A DNA stretch of 64,000 nucleotides from positions 6,438-70,437 of the forward strand of contig JAFRDO010000065.1 of NCBI GenBank assembly GCA_017403825.1, read 5' to 3'. Each line of letters begins with the position of its first letter. Position 1 is the stretch's first letter. Source of the stretch: Kiritimatiellia bacterium (GTDB taxonomy: Bacteria > Verrucomicrobiota > Kiritimatiellia > RFP12 > UBA1067). The position numbers and the translations under genes were made by a program. The notes under the pieces are model-generated. The model was not told the DNA's origin and made no database searches. It was given only the letters and a program-made list of their open reading frames with translations. Shown here piece after piece: positions 18,434 through 57,421 of this stretch.

Positions 18434-18440
18434 ATTGCAC

Positions 18441-18698: not shown

Positions 18699-18700
18699 GC

Positions 18701-19105: not shown

Positions 19106-19111
19106 CTTACC

Positions 19112-28268: not shown

Positions 28269-28288
28269 AATTTGCGCAGGAGGTCACT

Positions 28289-29650: not shown

Positions 29651-30097
29651 ATGGAGAAGTTCGAGGTGGTCGTGATGTGCGGGATTCCCGGAAGCGGCAA
29701 GACGACGTTTTGCCGCGAGCGGTTGTTTCCGCAGTATCTCTACATTTCGCTCGACCGGCTCAGGTCGCGGTCGGCGGAGGCGGAGCTTTTCGCATTTGCG
29801 CTGCGCCGCAGAAAGAGTTGCGTCATCGACAACACTAACATCAACGGACACGAGAGGACTCGTTACGTCCCGGCCGCCAAGAAAGCAGGCGCGAGCGTTG
29901 TCGCATACTGGTTCGATCCAGACGTCAGGGCGTGCAGGGCAAGGAACGCGAGCCGGACTGGGCGCGAGCGCGTGCCTGACTTCGTAATAGGGACCAAGGC
30001 GGCCCGCTTTGCCCCGCCGAACAAGGCGGAAGGGTTCGACGACATCCGCAAGGTGTCCATAGACGGCGACGGTTTCAAGGTGGAGGAGGGAATATGA
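29651..30097 (+). CDS. P-loop polynucleotide 5'-kinase-like protein (T4 Pnk kinase-domain-like / AAA_33)
   Basis: 'VVMCGIPGSGKTTFCRE' aligns to T4 Pnk 'TIGCPGSGKSTWARE'. 'VIDNTNINGHER' aligns to 'IISDTNLNPERR'. 'CRARNASRTGRERVPDFVI' aligns to 'VKRNSKRGTKAVPIDVL'. It overlaps the next gene by 4 nt. Confidence 0.65.
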   Translation: MEKFEVVVMCGIPGSGKTTFCRERLFPQYLYISLDRLRSRSAEAELFAFALRRRKSCVIDNTNINGHERTRYVPAAKKAGASVVAYWFDPDVRACRARNASRTGRERVPDFVIGTKAARFAPPNKAEGFDDIRKVSIDGDGFKVEEGI

Positions 30098-30846: not shown

Positions 30847-31084
30847 ATGCGGATAATGGCGACAACTGGCTTGCACGGCAACCTTGAGGGCTCGACCCCA
30901 AGAGTGCGGATATCGTCGTCCTTACGGGCGACATCGCACCGCTGCGCGGTTGCGGGCTATGGACGCCTGTACAAAGCAACGTTGGGCGTGATTTGCAGCC
31001 AATCCCGCCCGACAGTTTCCGGCCTCGAAAGCGTCATTGGCACGACTCGACGGACGCAAGGAACTCCAGCCTGTCGGCGACATA
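30847..31084 (+). pseudogene. Frameshifted, truncated calcineurin-like metallophosphoesterase remnant
   Basis: AAGGAG, 8 nt, then ATG at 30847, which reads MRIMATTGLHGNLEG. After an apparent 1-nt deletion the +1 frame reads LDPKSADIVVLTGDIAP. Together these form the canonical phosphoesterase N-terminus (DxHG...GDxx). Homology is lost after ~35 codons, and the frame runs into the convergent GH78 gene end. Confidence 0.5.
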
Positions 31085-34945: not shown

Positions 34946-34961
34946 AATTGACAAAAGACTA

Positions 34962-38109: not shown

Positions 38110-40494
38110 TTACTTCCTTGCCCACCCCTTAGGCAACTTCACATCAACCTTCAAGCCATCGCCGGTCCTGCGCCACTTCACAACCGCAACTTCGTCTCGT
38201 GACAACGGCAGCGTCCCCTCGCACCACTCAAGCGGAATGTCCGCCGCCGGACTGACGCGGACGACCTTCGCCTGCCTGTCGATCTCGCGCACCCCGAGAA
38301 CGTCTCGGAAAAGATATTCGCTTGCGATCGAGGCGAAGCCATGGCAGCAGCTGCAATTCCCCTTCGTGTCAAGATGTTCCCACAAAGTCCCCGTTTGATC
38401 TGCCATCGTCAGGAACCAGTCCCGCGTTTCGTCGAGAATCTGCCTCGAGCGCCCTGCGCGCGCCAGAAGCTCAAGCCTCTCGCAGGTGCCGAAGATGAAA
38501 TTCGCAGGCCATATGCGCTTGTGGAGTCCTTTAGCAACGCGGTCCGGACCGAACTCGTCAAGCATGCGTTTCCACAGCGCCGAATGGCTCTCCGGCGTCA
38601 CCGTGTTGAAGAAGAATGCGCAATATTGGCATGTTTCGGTGCACTCGCCGGACAGCTTCAGCGTTCCGTCCGGCTGCCTGACCGCGTTGTCGCAGAACCA
38701 TTCGCCGTTCCAGCTCTGGCGAACCACTTCCGCCCGAACCGCCCGCGCCTCAGCCGCCAGCTCCGGCATCTGATACAGCTTCGCGCAGGCCTCCAGCATC
38801 CGCGCATACATCATGTTTGACGGATAGTTCACGTCCTGGACGAGTTCGTTGGCCTTCGACCATTCCACGAACACCCAACCGGGGAGCTTCTCAAGAAGAC
38901 CGTCGGCGTTCTTGAACTTCCCGAGGAAACGCACAATGCCGAGAACCGCAGGCCGGCACTTTTCCGCAAATTTCCGGTCGCCATAGCGGGCGACGTGCTC
39001 TTCCAGCTGCATGACCGTCCACATCATGTAGTTGGGAATGAAGTTGTCCCAGAATATCCCGCCGGGATAAAGGGCCGGAATCGCGCCATCCATGCTGACG
39101 CCCTTCGAATCGTAGTGGGACCAGTCGAATCCGTCCGCCAGCAGGAAGTTCGAGAGGAACGTCTTCTCCACGGAGCCGTCTCCGGTCAGCCATGAGGACG
39201 CACGCCCCGTAAAGAACGTGTCGCCGGACCAATAAGCGCGTTCCCGCGTCGGGCAATCGGTGAACCCGTCTACCGCGTTCGCCCTGTACGATTCCCTCGC
39301 CGCCCGGAAGATGCGCTCAAGAGCCGGATCGGAAGCACGGAACGACGCGCGGTCAGCAAGCGGCGACACGTAAGTTCTCACCCACAGCGAATCGACGGCG
39401 GCCTTGCCTTCAAGCACGGCAACGTCTATGTACTTGGCCGCATATGGCTCAAACGTCTCAAGCTCATATTCTCCCGCCGATGCGATGCGCCACTCCGCGA
39501 CCGCCGCGCAGTCAAGGCGGGAGAAATAATTCAGAATGCCGTCCTTCCCAAGTATCTCGTCCCACGAAATGACGATGCGGCACGGTCCGTCCGTCCGCAC
39601 CTTCAGTCCGATAAACCCGGAGACGTTGCGGTCGCCCTCGAACGTGGCGGACTCGCCTGATGCAAGCGTTCCTGCATCGCCGCCGATGCATGACCTTGCG
39701 AAGCCCTGCAACTCGTAGTAGGGGTTCGTCTCCAGCTCGTCGAGCGGGAACCGGGTGTGCATCGGATCGTCGCTGGGATCGATGAAACCCAAGCGATAAA
39801 TCTTGCGTGACGGGTCTTTCGCGAGACGTTCCTTTCGGATCGGGCGAAACGACCTGTTCACGGCGAAATCAGGGTAGGGGAGCGGCCTCGGCTCGTATCT
39901 CTTCGTCGGCTGCACCGCCAGCCTGGGCGGCGATCCGGCCGCAGCGCCGACACGCCATGCATCGATGAACGTGCGTTGGCCAGAGAAGCGCGGCGCCTTG
40001 CATATGCGCCCTGCATCAAAAGCCTCGAAGCCGCCGCATGCTCCTGTCGCGGCGGCGACTTTTCCGCCGACCAGCAACTCCGCCTGCATAAACGAAGGCT
40101 GATTGATGAAATAGTAGCAGTTGCAGCAGTACCCTGCGGCCTCGACTTCAAGCACGTTGTCTCCCGCCTTGGCGTCAAGTTTCCACTCGTCAATGCGGAA
40201 GACACCCTCTGGTCCCCGGACGGGGCCAAAGCCGACGAAGCGGCCGTTCAGCCGCACGCGATAGTCGTAGGCGGCGGTCACGCGCAGGACCGCGGCGCCT
40301 AAATCGCCGTTGAAACGGCTGCGTATCGCACAGAAGGAGTTTGTCGCCCGCTCCTCGCCCGCTATCCACACCGGCTTTGCTTCGGCAAAAGATCCGACGG
40401 CTGAACCCGGCTCGGCGACACATGCAGCCGACATGCAGACAAGCCCCGCCGAGACGAACGCCGCACTTGCGGCCAAAAAATCTTTCCGCGTCAT
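38110..40494 (-). CDS. Tat/Sec-secreted GH78-family glycoside hydrolase (alpha-L-rhamnosidase-like)
   Basis: The ATG at 40494 gives MTRKDFLAASAAFVSAGLVCMSAACVA (the track start at 40500 is TTG). It has the rhamnosidase N-domain and 'FTDCPTRERAYWSGDTFFTG', matching the GH78 'DCPtRERlgWtGD' motif. Confidence 0.7.
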   Translation of the reverse strand: MTRKDFLAASAAFVSAGLVCMSAACVAEPGSAVGSFAEAKPVWIAGEERATNSFCAIRSRFNGDLGAAVLRVTAAYDYRVRLNGRFVGFGPVRGPEGVFRIDEWKLDAKAGDNVLEVEAAGYCCNCYYFINQPSFMQAELLVGGKVAAATGACGGFEAFDAGRICKAPRFSGQRTFIDAWRVGAAAGSPPRLAVQPTKRYEPRPLPYPDFAVNRSFRPIRKERLAKDPSRKIYRLGFIDPSDDPMHTRFPLDELETNPYYELQGFARSCIGGDAGTLASGESATFEGDRNVSGFIGLKVRTDGPCRIVISWDEILGKDGILNYFSRLDCAAVAEWRIASAGEYELETFEPYAAKYIDVAVLEGKAAVDSLWVRTYVSPLADRASFRASDPALERIFRAARESYRANAVDGFTDCPTRERAYWSGDTFFTGRASSWLTGDGSVEKTFLSNFLLADGFDWSHYDSKGVSMDGAIPALYPGGIFWDNFIPNYMMWTVMQLEEHVARYGDRKFAEKCRPAVLGIVRFLGKFKNADGLLEKLPGWVFVEWSKANELVQDVNYPSNMMYARMLEACAKLYQMPELAAEARAVRAEVVRQSWNGEWFCDNAVRQPDGTLKLSGECTETCQYCAFFFNTVTPESHSALWKRMLDEFGPDRVAKGLHKRIWPANFIFGTCERLELLARAGRSRQILDETRDWFLTMADQTGTLWEHLDTKGNCSCCHGFASIASEYLFRDVLGVREIDRQAKVVRVSPAADIPLEWCEGTLPLSRDEVAVVKWRRTGDGLKVDVKLPKGWARK

Positions 40495-45372: not shown

Positions 45373-46877
45373 GCCTCTTTCCTCCTCACCTCGAAATCCG
45401 TCATGATCGGTCGCCCGCGCGTGTAGTACGAATTCATCGGATTGACGATGAACCGCGACGGCAAGTCTGCCGGCACGTCACTCTTGAGCATCCGGCAGAC
45501 GACCTGCTTCTTCTCTGCCCCGTAGATGTAGTCCATTGGATAGAAACGGCGAGTGGCGACCGTCTTGACCACATCGCAAGCCTGCAGCTCAACGCGCACC
45601 TCGTACTCGTTGGCACGTGGCGTGGACGCCGTTGACGCGGCTGGCGGAAACGTCAGCTCGTACATCTCCCGCATCTCACCCAGCCGGTCTTTTGCACGCA
45701 CCTCTTTCACCGTGATCACCGCGCCGACAGGGAACTGCGGAGCCGGAACAACCTTCCGACGCGTCTCGAACGCATAGGGCCTGTCGCCCGGCGCAGGAAA
45801 CGGAATCACCCAGTCCGGCCCAAGTGAAACGCCGTACTTGAACTCATGACGCTTCACCACCATGCAGTTGTCATAGACTGAGACGAAATAGCCCTGACGC
45901 GTAAAGTCGTAGCCTTCGCCCACGGCCATTTCCGGCATCGTTCGCACGATGTGCCGCGTCTCGCGGTCGAACAGCGAGAAACCGTTCTCTCGCCCGCCGA
46001 GCGTCACGCAATATCTGAGCGACGGCACCTCGATGGCGCTGAACGCGCCCTGCCACACGCACTGGTCGTTCACGGCGCACTGATGGGCGTGTCCGCAGAA
46101 CGCGATGACGTTAGGAAACTTCGCCGCGAAGAGCGCACCAGTCGTTCCGTCTTCCTGTCCCCACACGTACGGACCGCACGCGGTATTGCGGTACACGCGG
46201 TGCTGCGAATGGAAGAATGGACGGTTAGGATCGAGATCGAGCCCAGCCATGAACTTTTCCAGCCCCGGCGTGTTGTCTCCCCGCTCGTTTCCCTTCTCGC
46301 CCTGCGTGAAGTGCGACAGCACGAAGTCATAGCCTTTCACGCGCTTATGGACGATCGGCGACCACGGCTCGTGGAAGCACTTCTCCCAGATCGCCTTGCG
46401 ATCGTTGAGGCGGATGATGACCTTCTTCATTTCCTCTTCGTCGGGAAACATCTTCACGCACGGCTTGCAGCGGCGGTAGGTCGATCCGCGCGTGTCATGA
46501 TCTCCGTAGTGCATCAGGTTCGCGACGGGGCGGCCGTCGCGCCCCTTGCCGTCCGGGAACACCTCAAACCACGCTCTCGCGACACACTCAAGCTGCGGAA
46601 TGACGCCGTAGTCGGCAAGGTCGCCGCACACCATCACGCCGTCCGCCCCCCAACTGTCGAACTCGCGCAGCACGGCCCTGAACGGCCCAGTGGCCTCCCA
46701 GTCCGTGATGTGTATGTCGCTCAGCACGCCAAGCTTGAGGCGTACTGGGCCGCGCGGTTCCACGATCGGTCTGCCGAACGACGGCACGGACGCCATCGTC
46801 ACTCCCGCAAACGATCCCTTCAGAAACGAACGCCGATTCATGCCATCCCGTATATAACGCGCAAAAAGATTTTTCAT
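45369..46877 (-). CDS. Tat-signal calcineurin-like metallophosphoesterase (paralog)
   Basis: MNRRSFLKGSFAGVTMASVP is a Tat signal. Phosphoesterase motifs: 'LGVLSDIHI', 'GDLADYG', 'GDHD'. It has 4-nt overlaps with both neighbours. Confidence 0.75.
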   Translation of the reverse strand: MKNLFARYIRDGMNRRSFLKGSFAGVTMASVPSFGRPIVEPRGPVRLKLGVLSDIHITDWEATGPFRAVLREFDSWGADGVMVCGDLADYGVIPQLECVARAWFEVFPDGKGRDGRPVANLMHYGDHDTRGSTYRRCKPCVKMFPDEEEMKKVIIRLNDRKAIWEKCFHEPWSPIVHKRVKGYDFVLSHFTQGEKGNERGDNTPGLEKFMAGLDLDPNRPFFHSQHRVYRNTACGPYVWGQEDGTTGALFAAKFPNVIAFCGHAHQCAVNDQCVWQGAFSAIEVPSLRYCVTLGGRENGFSLFDRETRHIVRTMPEMAVGEGYDFTRQGYFVSVYDNCMVVKRHEFKYGVSLGPDWVIPFPAPGDRPYAFETRRKVVPAPQFPVGAVITVKEVRAKDRLGEMREMYELTFPPAASTASTPRANEYEVRVELQACDVVKTVATRRFYPMDYIYGAEKKQVVCRMLKSDVPADLPSRFIVNPMNSYYTRGRPIMTDFEVRRKEA

Positions 46878-49191: not shown

Positions 49192-51504
49192 TCAATATCC
49201 CTTCATCACGTTTTCGGCGCGGCGGATGTAGGCATCCTGCTCGGCCTTGCAGAGGTCGTTCCACCTGACGTTCCAGCCGCACACGCGCACCTGGAGGCTC
49301 TCGTACCTCTCCGGGTGCGCCTGCGCGTCGCGCAGCTCCTCCGCGCTGAACACGGTGAACTGGATGACGCTGCCGCCGTTCCTGTGGAAGATCTCGACGA
49401 GCGACCTCATCGCCACGAGGCCCTTGTCGCCTGCACAGACGGAAGGATGCAGCATCATGTCGAGCGGATAGTCGCCGGGGAGCTTCGTCACGTCCGATGC
49501 CGCAAGTGTCGCCACGAGCGCCGTCGCGCCTTCCGTGTCCACGCCCATGGTTGGCGAGAGGTTCTTCGACATCTCCTCGCCCCTCCTCCGCCCGTCGGGC
49601 GTCGCACCGGTCTTTTCGCCGAGCACGATGTACTGACGCGCGCAGTGGCCGGAGGCGAGGAAAACTCCGCCGCGCGAATTGGGCTTGCCGTTCAACTGCG
49701 CGGCGAAGCAGTCGATCAGCTCCGCGCCGAGCGCATTCGCTGCAGCGTCGTTGTTCCCCCACTTGCGCTTCGACCGGAGCATCCGCCTGCGCAGCGCCTC
49801 GTGTCCCTCCCAGTTGGCCGCCATGATCTTTCCAAGTTCCGGAAGCGGCATGTTCTCCTCGTACACCAACTCCTTCACGGCCAGAAGCGAGTCGACAGCG
49901 GTGCCAAGGCCGACGGCGAGGATTGCGGTGTCGTTTCCGCGCGGGCAACCGTTCGCGAAACCATCGCAGCGGACCTTGAGCGAGTGTTCGGTCGCGAGCG
50001 TCATGCAGTTGGCGGGGTTCACCTCGGGCAGAACCTTCTCCAGCTCGAAAGCCACCTTGCGGCACCGGTCGGTCACGTCGGCGAGCCGACGCAGATATTC
50101 GGTCTTGAAGGAAGAAAAAGTTTCGAATTGAAACTTAGTTGGAGTTTTGAGTTGGAGTTGGAGAGCGGAATTTTCCATTCTCGAACTCGAACTCTGGACT
50201 CCAACTTCTTCCAGCATCGTCTCTATCGGCTTCAGGAAGTTGACGTGTCCGACGGCGGTGTCGTTCACAGCGTCGCGCAGCGCGAACTCGTAGCAGCCCT
50301 TCACCACCATCGTGCGGCAGTCATCGTCGCTCGCGCCGCTCCACTTCTTGAGCGCCCTTGCCGTCGGCTCCTCGCCGATGAACGCGATGGAGCGGTGCCG
50401 GCGGGCCATGTCGAGCATCTTGTCCCAGGCCCAGCCAGGCGTGTTCGGCGCGACCTTCGCCAAGAACTTCGGCGTCGCAAGCGCACAGTCGTCCATCACG
50501 TCAAGGACGATCCTGGACACGTGGTTGTACTCGCTCGCGCCGTCCTTTCGCGTGCCGCCGAGGCCGACGGGCTGGTTCCAGTAGTTGGCGACGGATCCCC
50601 ACTGACAGAAGAAGTGCCTGAGCTGCTCGCGGAACTCGGCCTCCGTGGTACGTCCGGCGGCACGGTCGGCGTCGTAGTACGGCGTGAGGGTCACGTCGAT
50701 CTCAGTCAGCGAGCGGCACTGGATGCCGTCAAGATGCTCCGAGAAAAAGAAGTAGAGCCACACGAACATCATCACGTCGTAGGCCGTTTGCGGCGGATCG
50801 CTCTTCAGACGCTCAAGACACGCAACCTCCTTCTCCAGGCGCTGCGCCCCCGCGTCCCCGCGCGGGATTCGACCCAGCCGCTTCCGCCCCTGCGCGGCGA
50901 ACCGTTCGATACCTCCCAGCATAGCGTCCATCGCGATCCGCAGCCCCTCGTAGAACGGATCGCCCGCAACGGCGTGCCTTTCCAGCCGCGCCTTCATCCC
51001 CGGAAAGCCCAGGGACAGTATCACGCGCCAGTCGGGAACGGAGTGATCGAAGTCCTGCCAGATGTTCCAGGTGCCGTCGCGGTTTCCGGCCTGCCATTCC
51101 CCGACGACCTCGGCGGATAGCATCCGCGCGTTGACCTCGGCGGCGCGGTCGCGCTTCGTCACCTTCCATATCGGCAGCGAAAGCCTGTCCCAGATCGCGA
51201 TCGCCGGAAACCAGTCGAGCGGCGAGACGTCTATCGCCTGTTCCAGGGCCTCGGCGGCGAAGCACCTGGCCTTGGTGACGCGCCACGGTTCGCCGGACGC
51301 CTTGCCTGCCGCGACTATCTCCGACAGGCGCTTTGCGACTCCCTCCTGCGAAAGCCCCGTCGTCCTGTCTGTCACGTCCTGCCTGAACTTCCGGCGCAGG
51401 TACGTGTCGACGTCGGCGATGTCCGCGACATACGGATCCCACCACGTCATGTCGAGGTAGTTCCTCTGCCGTCGCAGATCCGTCTGGCCTTCGGTGCCCA
51501 TCAT
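49192..51504 (-). CDS. Glycyl radical enzyme, eliminase/dehydratase class (PFL-fold). No signal peptide.
   Basis: The C-terminus 'GEKTGATPDGRRRGEEMS...LQVRVCGWNVRWNDLCKAEQDAYI' aligns to PFL 'GKKTGNTPDGRRAGAPFG...[23 protein letters not shown]', with the radical Gly retained. The Cys-loop 'VVKGCYEFAL' is of the single-Cys GCxE type (as in choline TMA-lyase and GRE dehydratases), not the PFL 'CC' type. The start is either ATG 51504 (just after the PATR stop) or ATG 51450 (better RBS, AGAGGAA). Confidence 0.7.
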   Translation of the reverse strand: MMGTEGQTDLRRQRNYLDMTWWDPYVADIADVDTYLRRKFRQDVTDRTTGLSQEGVAKRLSEIVAAGKASGEPWRVTKARCFAAEALEQAIDVSPLDWFPAIAIWDRLSLPIWKVTKRDRAAEVNARMLSAEVVGEWQAGNRDGTWNIWQDFDHSVPDWRVILSLGFPGMKARLERHAVAGDPFYEGLRIAMDAMLGGIERFAAQGRKRLGRIPRGDAGAQRLEKEVACLERLKSDPPQTAYDVMMFVWLYFFFSEHLDGIQCRSLTEIDVTLTPYYDADRAAGRTTEAEFREQLRHFFCQWGSVANYWNQPVGLGGTRKDGASEYNHVSRIVLDVMDDCALATPKFLAKVAPNTPGWAWDKMLDMARRHRSIAFIGEEPTARALKKWSGASDDDCRTMVVKGCYEFALRDAVNDTAVGHVNFLKPIETMLEEVGVQSSSSRMENSALQLQLKTPTKFQFETFSSFKTEYLRRLADVTDRCRKVAFELEKVLPEVNPANCMTLATEHSLKVRCDGFANGCPRGNDTAILAVGLGTAVDSLLAVKELVYEENMPLPELGKIMAANWEGHEALRRRMLRSKRKWGNNDAAANALGAELIDCFAAQLNGKPNSRGGVFLASGHCARQYIVLGEKTGATPDGRRRGEEMSKNLSPTMGVDTEGATALVATLAASDVTKLPGDYPLDMMLHPSVCAGDKGLVAMRSLVEIFHRNGGSVIQFTVFSAEELRDAQAHPERYESLQVRVCGWNVRWNDLCKAEQDAYIRRAENVMKGY

Positions 51505-51508
51505 ACGC

Positions 51509-53941
51509 CTACCAAATCGACAGGATGAATCCTCTCTTGATTCTCGGCACGATCCATCCGTACTCGTCCACCGAGACGCCGCGCTCGCCGTAGAATATGT
51601 TTCCAAGTTCGCTGCGGGACGGCTGGTTCACTACCCGGATCTGCCCGCCGGCTTCACTAAGTTCGTTAGTGATCGTCAGCGTGGCATTCGCCAGATTCTC
51701 AATCGAATCCACCACGAGCGTGGAGTTCGTCGGCACGTCCAACACACCCGCTGTCGTAAGCGACACCTTCCCGATCGCATTGGAGACGCCGTCCGCAAGC
51801 GCAAGCCCGCCGCCGAACAAAAGCGAGATGTTCTGCGATGCGTTCATCGTCCCCGTCCGCCCGAGTTTTAAGAATCCGCCGGAGACGAGCGTGGGGCCGA
51901 CGCAGCTGTACGTGCCGTTCATGAGCCATGTGCCGCTTCCGCGTTTGAGGACTGTGACATTCGTGTATGCCTCATTCAGAGGCGTGAGGATGTTGCCGGT
52001 GAACGTGAAATCCACGCCGCCGTCACCCGTCACGTCCTCGACGTCCACCGTGAACGTCCTGGGTTTGGGATTCTGCTCTGTAGAGGAGTTGTCGCCGTAG
52101 AGGTAGAGCGGGCTTGCCGAGGCGGAGCACGGAGTCGAACCGTAGACGTACCAGTTCCCCGCATGAAGCTTGCCGCAGTACACCTGGGCCGCATTGACGG
52201 TGGCGCCGTCGCAAAGCCAGAGATGGTTGAGGTAGCCGACGAAGCCGGAGCCTCCGACAGACCCGAACTCCACCGCACCGCCATCGTTCCATATTGAAAA
52301 CATGTAGCCAATGGAGTACCTCGCCGTCTGGCGGAGCGTGCCGCCCGGCTTGATGCAGAGCGCGCAGGTGTTGGACCCATAGTTGTACGACTGCTCGGTC
52401 ATGTTGAAGTTGAAGAGGACGGACGAGCCGTTTCCGGCGACAATCGACCCCATGCACGGAAGCGCGAACTTGCTGTCCAGCGACAGCGTGACGTCGCCGT
52501 ACGCCCTGTATTCGCCGCTGTCCATCGTGTTGACGCCGGAAAGCGCCGCCGCCGCCAACTCGATCGGCTCCGAGAACTCAAGTTCCACATCATAGACATA
52601 GACTGCAGCGCCGTTCGCGCTGTCGGTTGTAGATGCCGTCACCCTCTGCTGACTCCCGACCAATTCCGACCCTTGCGTCCCGGTGCCCTGCCTTGCTTCG
52701 GCGTACTTCACAAAAATGTCGTCTCCGACCTGAGTAAACTCGAGCGTGGCGCACCGCATGAAATTGGCGCCTGTCGATTTGTCAAGGCCCTGAATCTGCC
52801 AGCGTTGCGTCGTGGCCGTGGAAGAGAGGAGAACATACCCGTTCCCGTTGTTGGCAATCGGCAGCACGCCTTTGCTGTAGCATCCGACGACGGCCTTTAC
52901 GTTCGTTACGTTGGAAAGCCTCGCGTTTGTCTTGAACACCATGGAGGTCGTGTGATACTCCGTGTCCATGTCGGCCGCCGTGTAGAAGAAGCCGTCCCGC
53001 TTATATGAATAGACCGGGTCGTTCTCGAAAACGACGTCGCCCGCCCCGGAAACGGCGCTGGCGACGGAGATCCCGCAGGAATTGCGCAGTTCAACAGTGG
53101 AGCCGGCCCCCACGTTCAGACCGTTTGCGAACGTTCCCGCCACGGCGGCCCGACCGGCGTCTATCGCGACGAATGCGCCGTCCGCCGCCGAAACGGAACC
53201 TGAGAGCGCGCCGGCGAAGATGACCTTGGCGGCGTCATGCCCAGCCGTGATCTCCACGGTCAGGTTGTCCACGGTTCCTTCGACCGCAGTGCCGACGTCC
53301 GTGAAATCTCTCCTGCCGCGATAGTCACCGTAATCCGTGCCGTTCGTCTTCGTCCAGGCGACGGAGCCGTAGATGTCTGCACCGTTCTGCACGAGCACGA
53401 GCTTGGCGGACTGCGTCTGCCCGGCGTTGTAGCTGGTGACAAAACACTGCGACTGCATCTGCACTTCCAGCCGCCCGGCCTCGCGCACGATGAAATACGG
53501 CCTTGCTACGCCGGCAAGTTCTCCGCTGAAGCGCGATGCGACGGGAGTGACGGCGTCGAGCGAAAGGTTCTCGAACATCAATGCGCCGGGATTGCCGTCT
53601 TGGTACGCCGGAAGCGCAGCGCCGCTGTAGGTGAACTGCTGCCCCGTGCGCGAACAGGTCAGCCATGCGCCGGCGACATCGTTGGAGAACACGAGCGTTC
53701 CCGAGGCCGCCATTGTCACCGTTGCACCGGCGGCAAAGGCGATCGCATCGCCTGTGACGGTCAGGGTTTCACCGTTCGCCGGCGTGGCGACGAGCGTCTT
53801 CACGGCTCCGTTCTCGTATGTGAACGCAAGGGGACCAAGCGACGATGGAGTTGTGCCGGATGTCCAGACATAAGTTTCATCCGCCGTACAGACGGAACAT
53901 ATGGCGAACGCTGCCAACATCGTTTTGATTTTCCTGTTCAT
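51509..53941 (-). CDS. PATR-repeat large secreted protein; the C-terminus ends ...DEYGWIVPRIKRGFILSIW
   Basis: ATG at 53941. Signal peptide MNRKIKTMLAAFAICSVCTA. Repetitive beta-strand composition (G/T/S/A/V-rich). Confidence 0.7.
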   Translation of the reverse strand: MNRKIKTMLAAFAICSVCTADETYVWTSGTTPSSLGPLAFTYENGAVKTLVATPANGETLTVTGDAIAFAAGATVTMAASGTLVFSNDVAGAWLTCSRTGQQFTYSGAALPAYQDGNPGALMFENLSLDAVTPVASRFSGELAGVARPYFIVREAGRLEVQMQSQCFVTSYNAGQTQSAKLVLVQNGADIYGSVAWTKTNGTDYGDYRGRRDFTDVGTAVEGTVDNLTVEITAGHDAAKVIFAGALSGSVSAADGAFVAIDAGRAAVAGTFANGLNVGAGSTVELRNSCGISVASAVSGAGDVVFENDPVYSYKRDGFFYTAADMDTEYHTTSMVFKTNARLSNVTNVKAVVGCYSKGVLPIANNGNGYVLLSSTATTQRWQIQGLDKSTGANFMRCATLEFTQVGDDIFVKYAEARQGTGTQGSELVGSQQRVTASTTDSANGAAVYVYDVELEFSEPIELAAAALSGVNTMDSGEYRAYGDVTLSLDSKFALPCMGSIVAGNGSSVLFNFNMTEQSYNYGSNTCALCIKPGGTLRQTARYSIGYMFSIWNDGGAVEFGSVGGSGFVGYLNHLWLCDGATVNAAQVYCGKLHAGNWYVYGSTPCSASASPLYLYGDNSSTEQNPKPRTFTVDVEDVTGDGGVDFTFTGNILTPLNEAYTNVTVLKRGSGTWLMNGTYSCVGPTLVSGGFLKLGRTGTMNASQNISLLFGGGLALADGVSNAIGKVSLTTAGVLDVPTNSTLVVDSIENLANATLTITNELSEAGGQIRVVNQPSRSELGNIFYGERGVSVDEYGWIVPRIKRGFILSIW

Positions 53942-53957: not shown

Positions 53958-55016
53958 TTACAATTTCATCGCGGCGGCGAGCTGGTCGATGCCAGCGCAG
54001 TTGAAGCGGCACGTCGCTTCGCCCTGCGTGTCGGCCCATGACGCCATCATGAACCCCAGGAGCCTCTCCGGGGCAATGTGCTTGCGGCAGAACTCGACCA
54101 TCTTCCGCGAGTTCTCCGAGTTGTTCTTGAGCCCCGCCTTCTTCGCACGCTCGGAAATCCAGTTTGTGACGCACGGCAGCTGGTCGAAACCCGCCTTCTC
54201 CAAGTCGATGTACAGCTGGAGCTGCGGCTTGAACTCGGGCGCCATGTTCTCGATCACGTAGCCCTGCGCGTCCTGGTTGTAGTACCAATTCTGCTGAACT
54301 GTGCTTTTGGGCATCTTCTTCACGTATTCGGGATGCTTCCACCCGTAGTCGGCGCTCACGATGGCCCGCATGCCCAGCTTCTCGACGGCATTCACGAACC
54401 AGTAGAGGTCATGCCACCACATCTCATGCTGACGGATCATGACTACGCCACGCCCGCTCTGCAGTTTGTAGCACTCCTCGTCAAAGCCGATGTGGATCAT
54501 GCACGGCGTCTCAAATATCTCGGCGACGTCCTTCAGAATGTCGGAGCAAACGTTATAGTAGATCCGCGTGGAAAGCATGCGGTGATATTCCTGCAGCCAG
54601 CAGTCGTGCGTAGCCGAGAAGTTGAGACTCGGGATCGGCTCAAGCCCCATCTTCTTCAGCCGCTTTACCTCCGCCGCCATGCGCTCCGCCTTCCAGCTGC
54701 CCTTCACCGCCAGTTCGGGATGGCTCGGATATTCCAGGAACTCGCCAAGATCCATCACGACCATGTTCAGCCCCTTCGCCTTGGCGTGGTCGACGGTCTT
54801 CCGCCAGATGTCTTCGCTGAAGAATATCTCGTCTTTCGCGTACCGGCGGCCGGGGGCGACCGGCTCGCCGGGCGCATGCCAGTCGCCCCACATGTTCATG
54901 CCCATGTGCAGCATCACGGCGCGGACAGCCTCTGGAGATGCGGCGAACGATGGACTCACCGCAAGCCCGGCAGAGCCAATCATCGCCTCCTTGATGAATG
55001 TTCGCCTCGTCTGCAT
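53958..55016 (-). CDS. Tat-signal secreted TIM-barrel hydrolase-like protein (paralog of 40523..41566)
   Basis: ATG at 55016 lies 9 nt after GAAGGAGG. MQTRRTFIKEAMIGSAGLAVSPSFAASPEA is a canonical RRxF(I)K Tat signal. Its RBS overlaps the stop of the upstream activase gene. Confidence 0.65.
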   Translation of the reverse strand: MQTRRTFIKEAMIGSAGLAVSPSFAASPEAVRAVMLHMGMNMWGDWHAPGEPVAPGRRYAKDEIFFSEDIWRKTVDHAKAKGLNMVVMDLGEFLEYPSHPELAVKGSWKAERMAAEVKRLKKMGLEPIPSLNFSATHDCWLQEYHRMLSTRIYYNVCSDILKDVAEIFETPCMIHIGFDEECYKLQSGRGVVMIRQHEMWWHDLYWFVNAVEKLGMRAIVSADYGWKHPEYVKKMPKSTVQQNWYYNQDAQGYVIENMAPEFKPQLQLYIDLEKAGFDQLPCVTNWISERAKKAGLKNNSENSRKMVEFCRKHIAPERLLGFMMASWADTQGEATCRFNCAGIDQLAAAMKL

Positions 55017-55021
55017 TCCCA

Positions 55022-55879
55022 TCAACCTCCTTCGTTTTCCCTTTTCGGCGGCATCGTATCCTTCATGCCGAGCGCAAGGTACTTCGAGCGGGCGTAGTCG
55101 TAGTACTCAAGGTTGACGATCGACGACTCAGGGATGCCGATGGAATCGAGGTAGCGGTGGCGGGCGACGATGTCGTCGCCGTCCGTGCAGCCGGGAACCA
55201 CAAGGCACCGGACCTCCAGCTTCGCCTTAGCCGCCACGAGCCGTTCGAGGTTCTTCTTTATGGCACCGTTCGAGACGCCGGTGTACTTCACGTGAAGCGC
55301 ATCGTCGTCCGCCTTGTAGTCGGGAAGCCACAGATCCGTCACCGGCAGGAGCGCGTCTATCGCGGCGGGCGGAGCGTAGAGCGACGTGTCGAGGCAGGTG
55401 TGGAGCCCAGCCTTCTTGAACGCCGCGAACAGCTCAGCCGCCCATTCCCAGAAGAAGAGCGGCTCGCCGCCGGACAGCGTCACGCCGCCGCCGGACTCGT
55501 CGTAGAACGCCTTGTCCTCAAGCGCCTTGGCCACGATTTCATCAATCGTCATCGGCTTGCCGTAGAACTTCAGCGCGCGCGTGGGACACGTTGCCTCGTC
55601 CATCGTGCATTTAGCGCAATTCCTGCAGAGATGCCGGAAGCGCGCAGTCTGCGGCTTCACGTCGATGGACTCCGGGTTGTGGCACCAGATGCACTTCAAG
55701 GGGCATCCTTTCACAAAGAACGTCGTGCGGATTCCCGGCCCGTCATGGATAGCCATCCGCTTCGTGTCCAGCATCAGCGGCGTCTTTGCGGCGCGGCCGG
55801 CAGCGGACGCGACAGTCAGCGGCCCACAGGCCGCATACGCGGCGGAGACAGCGATGAACTCTTTGCGTGTCATCTTCAT
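55022..55879 (-). CDS. Glycyl-radical-enzyme activating enzyme (radical SAM, PflA-like) with an unusual ~40-aa Tat-signal-like N-terminal extension
   Basis: The core 'MAIHDGPGIRTTFFVKGCPLKCIWCHNPE' aligns to E. coli PflA '[26 protein letters not shown]' and contains the CxxxCxxC cluster. 'GVTLSGGEPL' is the SAM motif. Upstream and in frame, MKMTRKEFIAVSAAYAACGPLTVASAAGRAA is preceded by GGGAGGT and then 10 nt before the ATG at 55879. An alternative core start is the ATG at 55756 (MAIHDG...). Confidence 0.7.
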   Translation of the reverse strand: MKMTRKEFIAVSAAYAACGPLTVASAAGRAAKTPLMLDTKRMAIHDGPGIRTTFFVKGCPLKCIWCHNPESIDVKPQTARFRHLCRNCAKCTMDEATCPTRALKFYGKPMTIDEIVAKALEDKAFYDESGGGVTLSGGEPLFFWEWAAELFAAFKKAGLHTCLDTSLYAPPAAIDALLPVTDLWLPDYKADDDALHVKYTGVSNGAIKKNLERLVAAKAKLEVRCLVVPGCTDGDDIVARHRYLDSIGIPESSIVNLEYYDYARSKYLALGMKDTMPPKRENEGG

Positions 55880-55897
55880 GGACGCCGCGACCTCCCG

Positions 55898-57421
55898 TCA
55901 ATTCTCTCCGAACAGTCCGTTGATGTCTTCAACCGCCGCATCGCAGAGCTTGAACGCGCCCTCGTGGCCGATCTGGCCGTTGTTCACGCCGCCGCCGTAG
56001 CCGCGCGCCTCCTCGGCGGCGGGCGTCGGCACGTAGCCGTATGTGCCGCCGCACTGCTCCACCACGAACGTCTGCTTCGCCCGGCTCCGCGCCTTGATCG
56101 ACTGGCCGTAGGCGAGGTACAGCTCGAACGGACACGTCGCGAACGCAACGTCGCCGATGCGGCAGACGTGCATTTCGAACGTGAGGTCCGGCTGCTCGAC
56201 CTGATCCTTGCCCCGCCGCACGATGGCCTTGTTGATCTCGCGGCTGATGAAATCCATCTCCTTGTCGTCGTACGGGCCAGGGCCGCCAGTCGCCTCGTTC
56301 TTGTGGACGACGGCAAGGAACTCGTCCCATGTCTCCTTGTCCGTCTTGGTCTTCCGCGCTTCCGCGAGCGCCTTCTCCGCCGCCGCCACCTGCGTCGCAG
56401 TCACCTTCCGGCGCGGCACGGTCACGGACAGCTTCTCGTGCTTAAGCACGGGCATCGTCTCCACAGCGCGCGGCTTCGCCTCCGTGATGCACTTAACGAG
56501 CCTGTCCGAAAGGAGCGCACATGATGCCGCGTTCCAGCCGTGGAAGCCGTCGCGGTAGCCGCGCACGAGGTCACGCGGACTCTGGCAGCCCGCCGCGCCG
56601 ATCTGGTAGATCATGTGGAAGTTCTCGCCGTATGTCTTCTTCAGCTTCTCGCGCGTCTCGCCCGCGATGTCGCTCGAAACCTGATACGTCGCCTCCATAA
56701 CCTGCGCCGGACACGCCACGTTGACGAAAAGCCCTGTGTAACGCCCCTGCGCATCAACGGTGAACAGCATCTCCACGCCGTCGTCTTCGCTCTCCAGCAT
56801 TCTCACGAAATCGGGGCGCGTCGTGTCGCCGTACATCTGCGCTGAGCCGTCGGCGTACAGCGCGAGTCGGCAGTGCCCGATGCGCGCCGAGCCAAGCGCT
56901 CGCCGCACGCCGCCGGGCTTGCGTCCGCGCCATGCCTCCGCGAACGCCGCCGCCGCACGTTCCAGCGCGAAGTCGGCATATTCATTCGGCCCCCATACGT
57001 CGGGCTGTTTCCGCTCCATCTCCGCGCCCTTCGGCGTGCCGGAATGGCGGATCGCCGGCGCGCAGTGCGTATGGATGCAGTTGATGAAGATATGCTCAGG
57101 CGCGACCTCCGGCACGAGTTCGTGCACGCGGGCCCGCACGCGGTCCTGCCACGGCCCCCACACGCATTCGTTGTCGATAGTGCCCATCAGAAAGTAGTCT
57201 CCGCCACGCTGAACCGCCGCCGCCACGAACTTGAGCCGCGTGTGAATCGGATTCTTCGTATCCGCAAGCCTTTGATAGTACTGGCCGTCAAGCGGCACGC
57301 GCTTCGTCAAGGGCGGCGTAACGTCCACCTCCGCCCAGCCGATGTTCAGCGTATCGGATGCCGGCAACGACAGGGTCGCAACCGCAAACACGGAACATAA
57401 ATAATGATTCATTAACTTCAT
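55898..57421 (-). CDS. Secreted neutral/alkaline ceramidase-family-like protein
   Basis: ATG at 57421 with AAGGAGG upstream. Signal peptide MKLMNHYLCSVFAVATLSLPA. The N-domain 'IGWAEVDVTPP...IHTRLKFVAAAV..GGDYFLMGTID' matches the ceramidase_alk pattern (IG.g.aDiTgp...GiHtRL.aRAf......vfvs.D). Confidence 0.45.
   Translation of the reverse strand: MKLMNHYLCSVFAVATLSLPASDTLNIGWAEVDVTPPLTKRVPLDGQYYQRLADTKNPIHTRLKFVAAAVQRGGDYFLMGTIDNECVWGPWQDRVRARVHELVPEVAPEHIFINCIHTHCAPAIRHSGTPKGAEMERKQPDVWGPNEYADFALERAAAAFAEAWRGRKPGGVRRALGSARIGHCRLALYADGSAQMYGDTTRPDFVRMLESEDDGVEMLFTVDAQGRYTGLFVNVACPAQVMEATYQVSSDIAGETREKLKKTYGENFHMIYQIGAAGCQSPRDLVRGYRDGFHGWNAASCALLSDRLVKCITEAKPRAVETMPVLKHEKLSVTVPRRKVTATQVAAAEKALAEARKTKTDKETWDEFLAVVHKNEATGGPGPYDDKEMDFISREINKAIVRRGKDQVEQPDLTFEMHVCRIGDVAFATCPFELYLAYGQSIKARSRAKQTFVVEQCGGTYGYVPTPAAEEARGYGGGVNNGQIGHEGAFKLCDAAVEDINGLFGEN

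What the first reader, a model, noticed from the sequence alone, without database searches (positions are those of the whole stretch)
55022..55879. Radical-SAM GRE-activating enzyme with an in-frame, RBS-supported twin-arginine-like signal peptide, separated from its GRE by two exported-protein genes
The PflA-like core begins at ~residue 42. The 41 preceding codons read MKMTRKEFIAVSAAYAACGPLTVASA-AGRAAKTPLMLDTKR: an n-region TRKEF (RK variant of the RR motif), a hydrophobic h-region and an AxA site. This is almost identical to the Tat-type signal of the GH78 gene at 40494 (MTRKDFLAASAAF...). A properly spaced GGGAGGT RBS precedes this start, not the internal Met.

A Tat-exported [4Fe-4S]/SAM activase would be unprecedented because SAM is cytoplasmic. 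Alternatives are a recombination-derived fusion of a paralogous signal-peptide module, a vestigial Tat-like chaperone-binding tag, or translation from the internal ATG at 55756. The activase is also 3.5 kb from the GRE, with a Tat hydrolase and a PATR protein in between.
Basis: seen in the sequence. Interest (0 to 1): 0.75.

Follow-up and report, generated by a model that had tools for sequence, protein, structure and literature searches.

The report
Export signal on a radical-SAM activase
A glycyl-radical-enzyme activase, expected to work only inside the cell, carries a conserved Tat-type export signal, and in gut Kiritimatiellae its partner enzymes usually carry export signals too, so this oxygen-sensitive radical system may work outside the cytoplasm.

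Summary
ORF 55022-55879 (-) is a bona fide glycyl-radical-enzyme (GRE) activase. It has a 32-residue N-terminal extension shaped like a Tat signal: T-R-K-E-F, a weakly hydrophobic h-region, A-S-A, then basic residues.

- **Conservation:** all 120 nearest protein clusters and 37 of 50 species-level Kiritimatiellae loci carry the extension. A Shine-Dalgarno site precedes its start codon, never the internal Mets. Basal lineages have true R-R.
- **Relatives without it:** Lentisphaeria and Clostridia activases, and 13 Kiritimatiellae ones, start exactly at residue ~32.
- **Partner GREs:** they usually carry their own Tat- or Sec-type signals. Some are fused behind secreted GH16, GH29, GH2 or tannase domains.
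- **Co-variation:** activases have only Tat-type signals. They lack one only where the GRE has a Tat signal (7 loci) or where the whole locus is signal-less (1 locus). All 17 loci with a Sec-type GRE have a Tat-signal activase (Fisher p = 5e-4).

Best reading: a working export signal within an extracytoplasmic GRE system. In this window the GRE has no signal and may ride out with the activase.

Export is inferred, not shown. The source of SAM and electrons outside the cytoplasm is unexplained. No description was found in the searched literature.

The parts
55022..55879 (-). GRE-activating radical-SAM enzyme, 285 aa including the N-terminal signal
   Evidence: TIGR02494 234.7 bits (cut-off 174.35), Radical_SAM and Fer4_12. 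Aligns to E. coli PflA structures. An identical protein in the database is named 'radical SAM protein [Kiritimatiellae bacterium]'.
55890..55896 (-). Shine-Dalgarno-like GGGAGGT, with the GGAGG core 11 nt before ATG 55879
   Evidence: Read directly. In orthologues, 27/38 loci have a strong SD 3-13 nt before the start codon just upstream of the Tat motif, and 0/38 before the internal Mets.
55802..55879 (-). Predicted Tat-type signal peptide, residues 1-26 (MKMTRKEFIAVSAAYAACGPLTVASA), putative cleavage A-S-A|A
   Evidence: n/h/c architecture read directly. Conserved in 120/120 nearest clusters. dN/dS 0.41. In-frame GC3 0.75. Cleavage is inferred only.
55856..55870 (-). Tat-like motif T4-R5-K6-E7-F8 (R-K variant of S/T-R-R-x-F)
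   Evidence: Across 120 clusters: R 120/120; second position K 101, R 16; F(+3) 116; T(-1) 109. Basal lineages and the window's own sister lineage (P0002, L087) have R-R.
55784..55801 (-). Basic linker A27-G-R-A-A-K32 between the signal and the core (c-region and early mature positive charges)
   Evidence: G-R at -5/-4 and K/R at -1 before TPLMLD in 116-120 of 120 clusters. Absent from signal-less paralogues, which start M-K-TPLMLD.
55025..55783 (-). Catalytic core of the activase (residues 33-285). DGPGIR 55727-55744; CPLKCIWC (CX3CX2C) 55682-55705; four-Cys auxiliary-cluster motif CRNCAKCTMDEATC 55586-55627; SGGEP 55460-55474
   Evidence: Motif coordinates. Core boundary from outgroup alignments.
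49192..51504 (-). Glycyl radical enzyme, 770 aa, no signal peptide (MMGTEGQTDLRRQRNYLD...). Gly loop RVCGW 49273-49287; Cys loop GCYEF 50284-50298
   Evidence: PFL-like and Gly_radical. Best solved relative is HypD 6vxc, E = 2e-49. Most 72-88%-identical homologues carry Tat- or Sec-type signals in front of the same ...RKQRNYLD start.
53958..55022 (-). 353-355-aa protein of unknown family with an RR signal (MQTRRTFIKEAMIGSAGLAVSPSFAAS). Its start overlaps the activase stop (TGATG)
   Evidence: TIGR01409 16.5 bits against a cut-off of 16.7. Orthologue in L087.
51509..53941 (-). 810-aa exported beta-strand-repeat protein between the activase and the GRE (Sec-type signal MNRKIKTMLAAFAICSVCTA)
   Evidence: PATR model only 13 bits against a cut-off of 27. 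Orthologue in L087.
55898..57421 (-). 507-aa exported protein of unknown family directly upstream of the activase
   Evidence: In L091 and L093 the same gene precedes the AE-type signal.
38110..40494 (-). GH78-type rhamnosidase whose signal MTRKDFLAASAAFVSAGLVCMSAACVA has the same T-R-K-x-F flavour

Best explanation
The first 26-32 codons of the activase gene encode a translated, selected, Tat-type export signal.

The activase must receive its [4Fe-4S] clusters while folding in the cytoplasm. It therefore uses the folded-protein (Tat) route to leave the cytoplasm. It belongs to a system specific to gut Kiritimatiellae in which the GREs also work outside the cytoplasm, alongside secreted glycan-degrading enzymes.

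Three layouts occur:
- **GRE with a Sec signal:** it crosses the membrane unfolded, and the activase needs its own Tat signal to meet it.
- **GRE with a Tat signal:** the activase can lose its signal and ride along.
- **GRE with no signal (this window):** the activase keeps its signal. The GRE either rides out bound to the activase (Tat 'hitchhiking') or is activated before the activase leaves.

**Shown:** the extension is real, it starts at the upstream ATG, it is conserved, it has Tat-type architecture, and its presence co-varies with the partner's signal type.

**Inferred:** export, cleavage after A-S-A, and hitchhiking.

**Unknown:** how SAM and a low-potential electron reach an activase outside the cytoplasm. 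My guess is that the activase is exported pre-loaded with a reduced cluster and bound SAM, and fires once.
For: **1. Conservation**
- All 120 nearest clusters (81-87% identity, 275-296 aa) have M..T-R-[K/R]-E-F-h-region-P...A-x-G-R-x-x-K before TPLMLD.
- 37 of 50 GTDB species-level Kiritimatiellae loci have it.
- More divergent members have canonical R-R (P0127, P0124, P0269, L036, L039, L045-L054).

**2. Translation start**
- A strong SD precedes the signal's start codon in 27/38 loci, and the internal Mets in 0/38.
- ATGA overlaps with the upstream GRE stop are seen in L001 and L087.
- dN/dS is 0.41 for the signal and 0.11 for the adjacent core.
- No locus has an in-frame stop or frameshift in the extension.

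**3. A modular add-on**
- Outgroup activases (28 Lentisphaeria/Clostridia loci) and 13 Kiritimatiellae paralogues start at residue ~32.

**4. Partner GREs carry export signals**
- In the GTDB loci.
- In one GRE subfamily: 50 Tat-like, 62 hydrophobic (Sec-type), 8 with none, of 120.
- In the window's own subfamily: 59 Tat-like, 35 hydrophobic (Sec-type), 26 with none, of 120.
- Single-ORF fusions exist: Sec signal-GH16-GRE (P0270; 11 member sequences, 4 contigs), Sec signal-GH29-GRE, GH2-GRE, Sec signal-tannase-GRE (18 member sequences) and signal-DUF1080-GRE.

**5. Cell-biological logic**
- The cofactor-bearing activase has only Tat-type signals. The cofactor-free GRE has either type. Tat-like h-regions are less hydrophobic than Sec-like ones (1.7-2.0 against 2.2-2.5).

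**6. Co-variation**
- Sec-type GRE: activase has a Tat signal in 17/17 loci. Tat-type GRE: 5/12 loci. Fisher p = 5e-4.
- Signal-less activases fall in at least 6 separate places on the tree, each next to a Tat-signal GRE.
- Signal-less GREs (window, L004, L006, L042, L087, L093) always sit with a Tat-signal activase.

**7. Natural experiments**
- L091 is the window layout with the activase core deleted and the AE-type signal fused in frame to the GRE.
- L088 is an all-cytoplasmic locus in which both GREs, the activase and the neighbouring hydrolases all lack signals.

**8. Background**
- Kiritimatiella has a normal Gram-negative envelope with Sec, Tat and T2SS (PMC5148204).
- Tat export of heterodimers with one signal is established (abstract of 10.1101/2023.11.02.564894).
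Against: - There is no experimental localisation. Everything rests on sequence.
- The window's motif is R-K, not R-R. Pfam TAT_signal and TIGR01409 give no hit for it, and only sub-threshold hits (14.9-18.2 bits against 22.7; 15.8 against 16.7) for R-R orthologues.
- R-K dominates in the GRE/activase family, whereas neighbouring exported hydrolases mostly use R-R. This could point to a role other than efficient export.
- SAM and flavodoxin/ferredoxin-type reductants are cytoplasmic, and no conserved third gene that could supply them sits next to the pair.
- Signal-less activases at ~80% identity show that the signal is not needed for catalysis.
- In this window the GRE has no signal and is not adjacent. 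The pair could therefore act in the cytoplasm, with the signal serving other GREs elsewhere in the genome.
- Signal types were assigned by my own heuristics and by eye, not blind and not with SignalP or TatP.
- Loci are phylogenetically related, so the Fisher p-value is only indicative.
- dS is saturated.
- The AF2 model was too poor to use (pLDDT 55.7).
Confidence: 0.6

Rival explanations
1. The peptide is translated and selected, but it is not an export signal for the activase. It docks the activase at the membrane, the Tat receptor or a chaperone. The activase then activates GRE precursors in the cytoplasm just before they are exported, and itself stays inside (a NarG-like 'remnant' or escort tag).
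For: - SAM and the reductants are cytoplasmic.
- R-K (101/120) is a weaker Tat determinant than R-R, and it is enriched in this family relative to neighbouring exported proteins.
- The Tat-signal HMMs do not reach threshold.
- There is precedent from established knowledge: NarG keeps a vestigial Tat motif that binds NarJ.
Against: - The peptide has the full n/h/c architecture, with a helix-breaking Pro, small residues at -3/-1 and basic c-region residues. It is not a degenerate remnant.
- No chaperone gene is conserved nearby.
- This reading cannot serve the 17 loci where the GRE has a Sec-type signal or sits behind a Sec-exported GH16, GH29 or tannase domain. A glycyl radical cannot be installed on an unfolded chain.
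- It does not predict that activases lose the peptide only when the GRE has a Tat signal.
Confidence: 0.22
2. In this particular lineage the signal is a leftover. The GRE has already lost its signal and returned to the cytoplasm, and the activase signal is neutral or mildly harmful and has not yet decayed.
For: - The window GRE and its nearest relatives are signal-less.
- A completely signal-less locus exists (L088), so reversion to the cytoplasm does happen.
- Here the activase is uncoupled from the GRE by two inserted genes.
Against: - Several distinct lineages keep the same combination with an intact motif: window, L004/L006, L042, L087 and L093. L087 and L093 have true R-R.
- dN/dS is below 1.
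- Every other gene of the window cluster is exported.
- In L091 the AE-type signal was captured by the GRE rather than lost.
Confidence: 0.1
3. Translation starts at an internal ATG (M36 at 55774 or M42 at 55756), and the upstream 35-41 codons are untranslated leader.
For: Two in-frame ATGs exist. M36 would give MLDTKRMAIHDG..., close to the length of a normal activase.
Against: - No SD-like sequence precedes either internal ATG in the window or in 38 orthologous loci, while 27/38 have a strong SD before the upstream start.
- M42 would remove the conserved first strand.
- The reading frame, the motif and hydrophobicity are conserved across more than 100 clusters, with dN/dS 0.41.
- Genuine signal-less paralogues start one residue before T33, not at M36 or M42.
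Confidence: 0.03
4. The extension is a chance ORF extension, an assembly chimera, or a recent recombination that pasted a neighbour's signal onto the activase.
For: The first 13 residues resemble the GH78 signal in the same window.
Against: - The identical protein occurs on 6 contigs. The extension is found in 120/120 nearest clusters and across independent assemblies from sheep, goat, yak, deer and human gut.
- DNA identity to the GH78 signal is 31/60.
Confidence: 0.01

Closest known systems
GRE-activating enzymes of the PflA/PFLE_PFLC family (TIGR02494; e.g. PflA, CutD, HypD activase)
   Same: Radical-SAM core with DGPGIR, CX3CX2C and GGEP motifs. Encoded next to or near a GRE, often with overlapping start and stop codons. 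Scores above the family cut-off.
   Different: All described members are cytoplasmic and begin about 10-15 residues before DGPG. This clade adds a 27-39-residue Tat-type signal. It has a single four-Cys auxiliary motif instead of two ferredoxin motifs. It is far more conserved (>=80%) than the GREs it sits beside (24-86%).
Tat 'hitchhiker' pairs: the small Fe-S subunit carries the signal and the large catalytic partner has none (HybO/HybC, HyaA/HyaB; DmsA/DmsB in reverse)
   Same: In the window a small Fe-S protein has a Tat-type signal and a large partner has none. Across loci at least one partner keeps a Tat signal unless the whole locus is cytoplasmic. Signals move between partners (L091).
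   Different: The hydrogenase subunits form a permanent heterodimer. An activase normally binds its GRE only transiently, with the glycine loop flipped out. No stable AE-GRE complex is known, and none was testable here.
Vestigial Tat motif of cytoplasmic-facing NarG (binds the NarJ chaperone)
   Same: An N-terminal Tat-like motif on a cofactor-containing enzyme expected to stay in the cytoplasm.
   Different: NarG's remnant has no h-region or cleavage site and works with a dedicated chaperone gene in the operon. Here the signal is complete, and no chaperone gene is conserved.
Anaerobic sulfatase-maturating enzymes (anSME; radical-SAM maturases of exported sulfatases)
   Same: A radical-SAM enzyme that installs a catalytic modification on enzymes destined for the periplasm, in glycan-degrading anaerobes.
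   Different: anSME has no signal and modifies the unfolded sulfatase before export. A glycyl radical needs the folded GRE, so the same order of events cannot work for Sec-exported GREs.

Membership tests
GRE-activating enzyme (radical SAM, TIGR02494 PFLE_PFLC) | Profile score above the curated cut-off | tested here: met
   234.7 bits against 174.35. Radical_SAM and Fer4_12 in Pfam.
GRE-activating enzyme (radical SAM, TIGR02494 PFLE_PFLC) | CX3CX2C cluster motif, N-terminal DGPGIR motif, GGEP SAM motif | tested here: met
   C59/C63/C66, D46-R51, S136-P140. Invariant in 36 aligned orthologues.
GRE-activating enzyme (radical SAM, TIGR02494 PFLE_PFLC) | A cognate GRE with RVxG glycine loop and catalytic Cys encoded nearby | tested here: met
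   GRE 49192-51504 with RVCGW and GCYEF, 3.5 kb away. Directly adjacent or overlapping in most orthologous loci.
GRE-activating enzyme (radical SAM, TIGR02494 PFLE_PFLC) | SAM-dependent generation of the glycyl radical | not testable with these tools
   Needs EPR or biochemistry.
Twin-arginine (Tat) signal peptide | Consecutive arginines in S/T-R-R-x-F-L-K | tested here: not met
   The window has T-R-K-E-F. R-R is present in 16/120 orthologue clusters, in the sister lineages L087 and L093, and in most basal lineages. From established knowledge, single R-to-K changes are tolerated by some Tat substrates.
Twin-arginine (Tat) signal peptide | Tripartite n/h/c structure with a weakly hydrophobic h-region, small residues at -3/-1 and basic residues in the c-region (Sec avoidance) | tested here: met
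   FIAVSAAYAACGPLTV, then A-S-A|A-G-R-A-A-K. Family-wide: Pro at -11, A/S at -8/-7/-6, G-R at -5/-4. Median h-region hydrophobicity 2.0, against 2.2-2.5 for Sec-type GRE signals.
Twin-arginine (Tat) signal peptide | Match to TAT_signal profiles (PF10518, TIGR01409) above cut-off | tested here: not met
   No hit for the window peptide. R-R orthologues reach 14.9-18.2 bits (cut-off 22.7) and 15.8 bits (cut-off 16.7). A bona fide RR signal in the window (355-aa protein) also reaches only 16.5 against 16.7, so the test has low power.
Twin-arginine (Tat) signal peptide | Passenger that must fold or bind a cofactor before export | tested here: met
   [4Fe-4S] motifs are present. All AE signals are Tat-type and none is Sec-type, whereas the cofactor-free GREs use both.
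Twin-arginine (Tat) signal peptide | TatABC-dependent translocation and signal-peptidase cleavage | not testable with these tools
   A Tat system is reported for Kiritimatiella glycovorans (PMC5148204). It could not be checked for this genome.
Tat hitchhiker pair | Only one partner carries the signal, with a complementary distribution across relatives | tested here: met
   Window: AE has a signal, GRE has none. AE lacks a signal only beside a Tat-signal GRE (7 loci, at least 6 lineages) or in the all-cytoplasmic L088. Sec-type GRE goes with AE Tat in 17/17.
Tat hitchhiker pair | Stable complex of the two partners during transport | not testable with these tools
   No multimer modelling or biochemistry was available.
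Vestigial Tat motif / chaperone-binding tag (NarG type) | Degenerate motif without h-region or cleavage site, plus a dedicated chaperone gene in the locus | tested here: not met
   The signal has a complete architecture. GRE and AE are the only genes conserved across 50 loci.

The most novel reading that the evidence does not exclude
Radical-SAM and glycyl-radical chemistry operates outside the cytoplasm. In gut Kiritimatiellae the activase would be exported folded by Tat, possibly pre-loaded with a reduced cluster and SAM as a single-shot device. There it would activate GREs that arrive by Sec or Tat, or that ride on the activase as in this window. These GREs would work in the periplasm with, and sometimes fused to, glycoside hydrolases and esterases on glycan-derived substrates. 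That would make them a new, CAZyme-like class of exported radical enzymes.
Probability: 0.45. Interest if true: 0.95.

Novelty: new variant of a known kind. Interest (0 to 1): 0.85.

Why it matters
Radical-SAM enzymes and GRE activation are treated as strictly cytoplasmic, because SAM and low-potential reductants are found there.

A conserved export signal on the activase, export signals on most partner GREs, and GREs fused behind secreted GH16, GH29, GH2 and tannase domains all point to an extracytoplasmic radical-enzyme system.

If that is true:
- It overturns the compartment assumption.
- It raises a sharp, testable question: how do SAM and electrons get there, or is the activase a pre-loaded single-use reagent?
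- It adds a radical mechanism to anaerobic glycan breakdown in rumen and human-gut Kiritimatiellae.
- It gives a natural test bed for Tat hitchhiking and for R-K signals.

Even if the activase stays inside, a conserved full-length Tat-like peptide on a cytoplasmic radical-SAM enzyme would need a new explanation.

Tried and rejected
- **AlphaFold2 of the activase** with 36 close orthologues gave pLDDT 55.7 and an unusable N-terminal third. No fold search was run.
- **Pfam and NCBIfam Tat-signal profiles** gave only sub-threshold hits for R-R orthologues and none for the window peptide. The test has low power, because a clear RR signal in the window also misses the cut-off.
- **Search for a conserved third gene** (reductant, SAM carrier, chaperone) next to GRE-AE in 50 loci. 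The only extra 'family' was an antisense ORF artefact.
- **Recent recombination with the GH78 signal:** rejected at 31/60 identical bases.
- **Lipoprotein signal:** rejected. Only the window sequence has a Cys in the h-region, and Y-A-A-C is not a lipobox. Orthologues have no Cys.
- **Microcompartment encapsulation peptide:** rejected. The peptide is not amphipathic, three different signal types occur on the GREs, and no shell genes are among the conserved neighbours.
- **Membrane anchor holding the enzyme on the cytoplasmic face:** rejected. The h-region is short, Pro/Gly/Ser-rich and flanked by positive charges on both sides. For the GREs the charge distribution predicts an N-in/C-out orientation.
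- **Literature:** seven full-text searches pairing 'glycyl radical', 'radical SAM' or Kiritimatiell* with twin-arginine, Tat signal, periplasm, signal peptide or CAZyme found no description of signal-bearing activases or exported GREs.
- **My first rule, 'every pair keeps at least one Tat signal',** was broken by L088/L089. I replaced it with co-variation of signals across the whole locus.
Full report
**1. The observation**

It is a glycyl-radical-enzyme (GRE) activase.
- TIGR02494 scores 234.7 bits against a cut-off of 174.35.
- Pfam finds Radical_SAM and Fer4_12.
- It aligns to the E. coli PflA structures.
- Motifs: DGPGIR (residues 46-51), C59-x3-C63-x2-C66, a four-Cys auxiliary motif (C85...C98) and SGGEP.

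The upstream gene stops at 55900-55898. GGGAGGT lies at 55896-55890, so the GGAGG core is 11 nt from ATG 55879.

The GRE is at 49192-51504. It has PFL-like and Gly_radical domains, the motifs RVCGW and GCYEF, and its best solved relative is HypD 6vxc. It has no signal peptide.

Between activase and GRE lie a 353-355-aa protein with an RR signal and an 810-aa exported repeat protein. The PATR label for the latter rests on a 13-bit hit against a cut-off of 27. The 'hydrolase' label for the former has no family support.

The organism is a gut Kiritimatiellae bacterium. An identical protein in the database carries that name.

**2. Where the core begins, and where translation starts**

The nearest activases outside the clade (49-50% identity and below) align from query residues 32-37 to their own residues 2-10. 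PflA V15 aligns with H45. The core therefore starts at about T33 (TPLMLDTKR), not residue 42, and the extension is residues 1-32.

Besides M42 there is an in-frame M36. Neither internal ATG has an SD-like sequence in front of it.

In 38 non-redundant orthologous loci:
- A strong SD lies 3-13 nt before a start codon just upstream of the T-R-[K/R] motif in 27 loci.
- A strong SD lies before either internal Met in none.

In L001 and L087 the signal's ATG overlaps the stop codon of the preceding GRE (ATGA), with GGAGG 6 nt upstream. In-frame GC3 of the extension is 0.75, against 0.83 for the core.

**3. Conservation**

All 120 best database clusters (81-87% identity, 275-296 aa) carry the extension. 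Its length is 27-39 residues. Aligned on the motif:
- R is present in 120/120.
- The next residue is K in 101, R in 16, and S or G in 3.
- F at +3 is present in 116, and T at -1 in 109.
- An A/S-rich h-region ends in Pro, followed by small residues.
- G-R sits at -5/-4 and K/R at -1 before TPLMLD in 116-120.

More divergent members have canonical twin arginines. Examples are P0127 MSRIERRDFLRSGAAFAG and P0269 MKRREFIGLGAAAM, plus L036, L039 and L045-L054. The window's sister lineages L087 and L093 also have twin arginines.

Pairwise dN/dS over 27 signal codons is 0.41, against 0.11 for the adjacent core. dS is saturated.

Chance, assembly artefact and internal initiation are therefore excluded for practical purposes. 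The likeness to the GH78 signal at 40494 is at motif level only (10/20 residues, 31/60 bases).

**4. Distribution**

A scan of one genome per species returned 79 loci.
- The clade at 68-87% identity comprises 50 loci. All are MAGs from rumen, hindgut and human gut, labelled Kiritimatiellae or a PVC synonym, often with several copies per genome.
- Of these, 37 carry the signal.
- The other 13 start M-K-TPLMLD or similar, with a stop or the upstream GRE's coding sequence just before.
- The next relatives are 28 loci from Lentisphaeria, Victivallales and Clostridia at 39-47% identity. None has an extension.

On a neighbour-joining tree of the cores the Kiritimatiellae clade is monophyletic. The signal-less members fall in at least six separate places.

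**5. The partner GREs**

This is the main new point. In orthologous loci the GRE is usually directly adjacent to the activase, and it very often has its own N-terminal signal.
- Tat-like examples: L008 MMTTRKCILGGMAVLGLMGGSASA, L031 LTRRAFVSGAIGASVMLG, L040 TTRRMFIGGAVAFAAMSG, L036 VSRRQFFGFLGTGAAAAALP.
- Classical Sec-type examples: L010 MNKKNKNILVIALLAAFPAVSFA|RGEGW, L024, L030, L050, L039.

Counts among 120 cluster representatives in each of two GRE subfamilies:

| GRE subfamily | Tat-like | Hydrophobic (Sec-type) | None |
|---|---|---|---|
| One subfamily (24% identical to the window GRE) | 50 | 62 | 8 |
| The window's own subfamily (72-100% identity) | 59 | 35 | 26 |

In the first subfamily the 8 without a signal are mostly truncated gene calls. 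In the window's subfamily about half of the 26 are truncated calls. The genuine signal-less group is the window's closest kin (MGTE.Q...RRQRNYLD, MTASRPKQKSYLD).

Outgroup GREs have no signals.

Several GREs are fused, in one ORF, behind domains that are normally secreted:

| Fusion | Protein | Support |
|---|---|---|
| Sec signal + GH16 (EIDVLE motif) + GRE | P0270 / L032 | 11 member sequences, 4 contigs, three sources |
| Sec signal + GH29 + GRE | P0417 | - |
| GH2 + GRE | P0326 | - |
| Sec signal + tannase/feruloyl esterase + GRE | P0493 | 18 member sequences; joined exactly at the mature N-terminus APRRKQRSYDD |
| Signal + DUF1080 + GRE | L048 | - |

**6. Co-variation**

Activases carry only Tat-type signals, never Sec-type. 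The cofactor-free GREs carry either. Tat-like h-regions are less hydrophobic than Sec-like ones.

Signal types at non-redundant loci where both partners could be read:

| Partner GRE | Activase with Tat signal | Activase without signal |
|---|---|---|
| Sec-type signal | 17 | 0 |
| Tat-type signal | 5 | 7 |
| No signal | window, L004, L006, L042, L087, L093 | L088/L089 only |

Fisher p = 5e-4 for the first two rows. L088/L089 is one locus, in which both GREs and the neighbouring GH63-like and DUF5696 genes are also signal-less, so it is a fully cytoplasmic version.

In L091 the window's layout recurs, with the activase core and the two intervening genes deleted. The AE-type signal is fused in frame to the GRE: MMTRGEFLALSGALAVAPAFASDRR|TGGQERFRIRRQRNYLD.

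Caveat: I assigned signal classes by rule and by eye, not blind, and the loci are related.

**7. Best explanation**

The peptide is a working Tat-type signal. An Fe-S enzyme can leave the cytoplasm only folded, which explains the exclusive use of Tat-type signals.
- GREs exported unfolded by Sec need the activase on the far side, which explains the 17/17.
- A GRE with its own Tat signal can carry the activase, which explains the repeated losses.
- A signal-less GRE, as here, can be carried by the activase.

Tat export of heterodimers with one signal is established (abstract; HybO/HybC from textbook knowledge). Kiritimatiella has an ordinary Gram-negative envelope with Sec, Tat and T2SS (PMC5148204).

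What is shown: sequence conservation, start-site evidence, signal architecture and co-variation.

What is inferred: translocation, cleavage after A-S-A, and hitchhiking.

What is not explained: the supply of SAM and a low-potential electron outside the cytoplasm. No conserved accessory gene was found. My working guess is export of a pre-loaded activase (reduced cluster plus bound SAM) that fires once. The frequent 4-nt GRE/AE overlaps would fit roughly equimolar synthesis.

Another open point is the dominance of R-K over R-R in this family. The ratio is 101:16 in activases and 51:7 in the window-type GREs, whereas neighbouring exported hydrolases mostly use R-R. A deliberately slow signal that leaves time for cluster insertion or activation is possible, but that is pure speculation.

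**8. Rivals**

| Rival | Case against | Confidence |
|---|---|---|
| (a) Non-export docking or chaperone tag | Cannot serve Sec-exported GREs; no chaperone gene; full n/h/c architecture | 0.22 |
| (b) Decaying leftover in this lineage | Several lineages keep the same combination with an intact motif; L091 shows capture of the signal rather than loss | 0.10 |
| (c) Internal start | See section 2 | 0.03 |
| (d) Artefact or recent recombination | See section 3 | 0.01 |

**9. Comparison with known systems**

It is a member of the GRE-activase family, and all sequence criteria are met.

It works like a Tat signal, but the window copy fails the strict twin-arginine criterion and the profile cut-offs. 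I therefore call it 'Tat-type, R-K variant' and do not file it as a certified Tat signal.

It resembles hydrogenase-type hitchhiker pairs in logic, but not in known subunit stability. It differs from NarG's vestigial motif and from anSME, which is signal-less and acts before export.

**10. Novelty**

Seven full-text searches found no report of signal-bearing activases or exported GREs. The library is incomplete, so this is absence of evidence only.

What is demonstrated is a new variant of a known kind. If export is confirmed, the biology (radical-SAM and glycyl-radical chemistry outside the cytoplasm, with GREs acting as exported glycan-processing enzymes) would be categorically new.

**11. 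Dead ends**

- The AF2 model was poor.
- Tat profile HMMs lacked power.
- tatABC could not be checked for this genome.
- No standard signal predictor was available.

Noticed in passing
L032:4829-7963 (=P0270); also P0417, P0326, P0493, P0490, L048:5134-8004: Single-ORF fusions place secreted-type domains in front of a GRE. The domains are GH16, GH29 fucosidase, GH2, tannase/feruloyl esterase, a beta-lactamase-type esterase and DUF1080. Several fusions sit behind a Sec signal. They suggest these GREs act with glycan or ester hydrolases on the same substrates.
   Followed up: partly
L091:310-2745: This is a relative of the window locus in which the activase core and the two intervening genes are missing. 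The activase-type signal is fused in frame to the GRE (MMTRGEFLALSGALAVAPAFASDRR|TGGQ...RRQRNYLD). The orthologue of the window's 507-aa gene lies upstream and the GH39 gene downstream.
   Followed up: partly
L088 / L089 (GCA_017962605.1, JAGCUY010000044.1): This is an all-cytoplasmic version of the system. Two GREs, a 247-aa activase starting MKTPLLLD, and the neighbouring GH63-like and DUF5696 genes all lack signals.
   Followed up: partly
AE and GRE families: Activases are far more conserved (>=80% identity) than the GREs they sit next to (24-86% identity to the window GRE). This may reflect interchangeability, gene conversion or an extra constraint on the activase.
   Followed up: no
AE and GRE signals against neighbouring genes: R-K is the dominant form of the motif in activase and GRE signals (101:16 and 51:7). 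Other exported proteins in the same loci mostly use R-R.
   Followed up: partly
L085 (P0264, JGI 3300010167) and L086 (P0127): P0264 is a distant (40% identity) activase with two ferredoxin motifs and its own signal (MISKRKFLRTATLLGGACLINPCKVLG), with a GRE downstream. It may be an independent origin. P0127 has a canonical RR signal, but HGPGRRT replaces DGPGIRT.
   Followed up: partly
window 53958-55022 and 55022-55024: The start codon of the 353-aa RR-signal protein overlaps the activase stop codon (TGATG) and lies behind GAAGGAGG. The activase is therefore translationally coupled to an exported protein of unknown family rather than to its GRE.
   Followed up: no
window 14956-22534 (-): A 1145-aa SNF2-helicase/PLD-domain protein sits next to a 1140-aa Eco57I/MmeI-type methylase-restriction fusion. 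This is probably a restriction or defence island.
   Followed up: no
window 29980-30834 (+): A Thg1-like tRNA-His guanylyltransferase homologue, next to an AAA/DUF4143 ATPase (28271-29626).
   Followed up: no
window 31034-34978, 38110-40494, 43906-46877, 46874-~49000 (-): The GRE sits in a rhamnose/deoxy-sugar glycan locus. It contains two GH78-type rhamnosidases, two Tat-signal metallophosphoesterases and a GH39 + endonuclease/exonuclease/phosphatase fusion, all with signals. L087 has the same genes in a different order, so the locus has been rearranged.
   Followed up: partly
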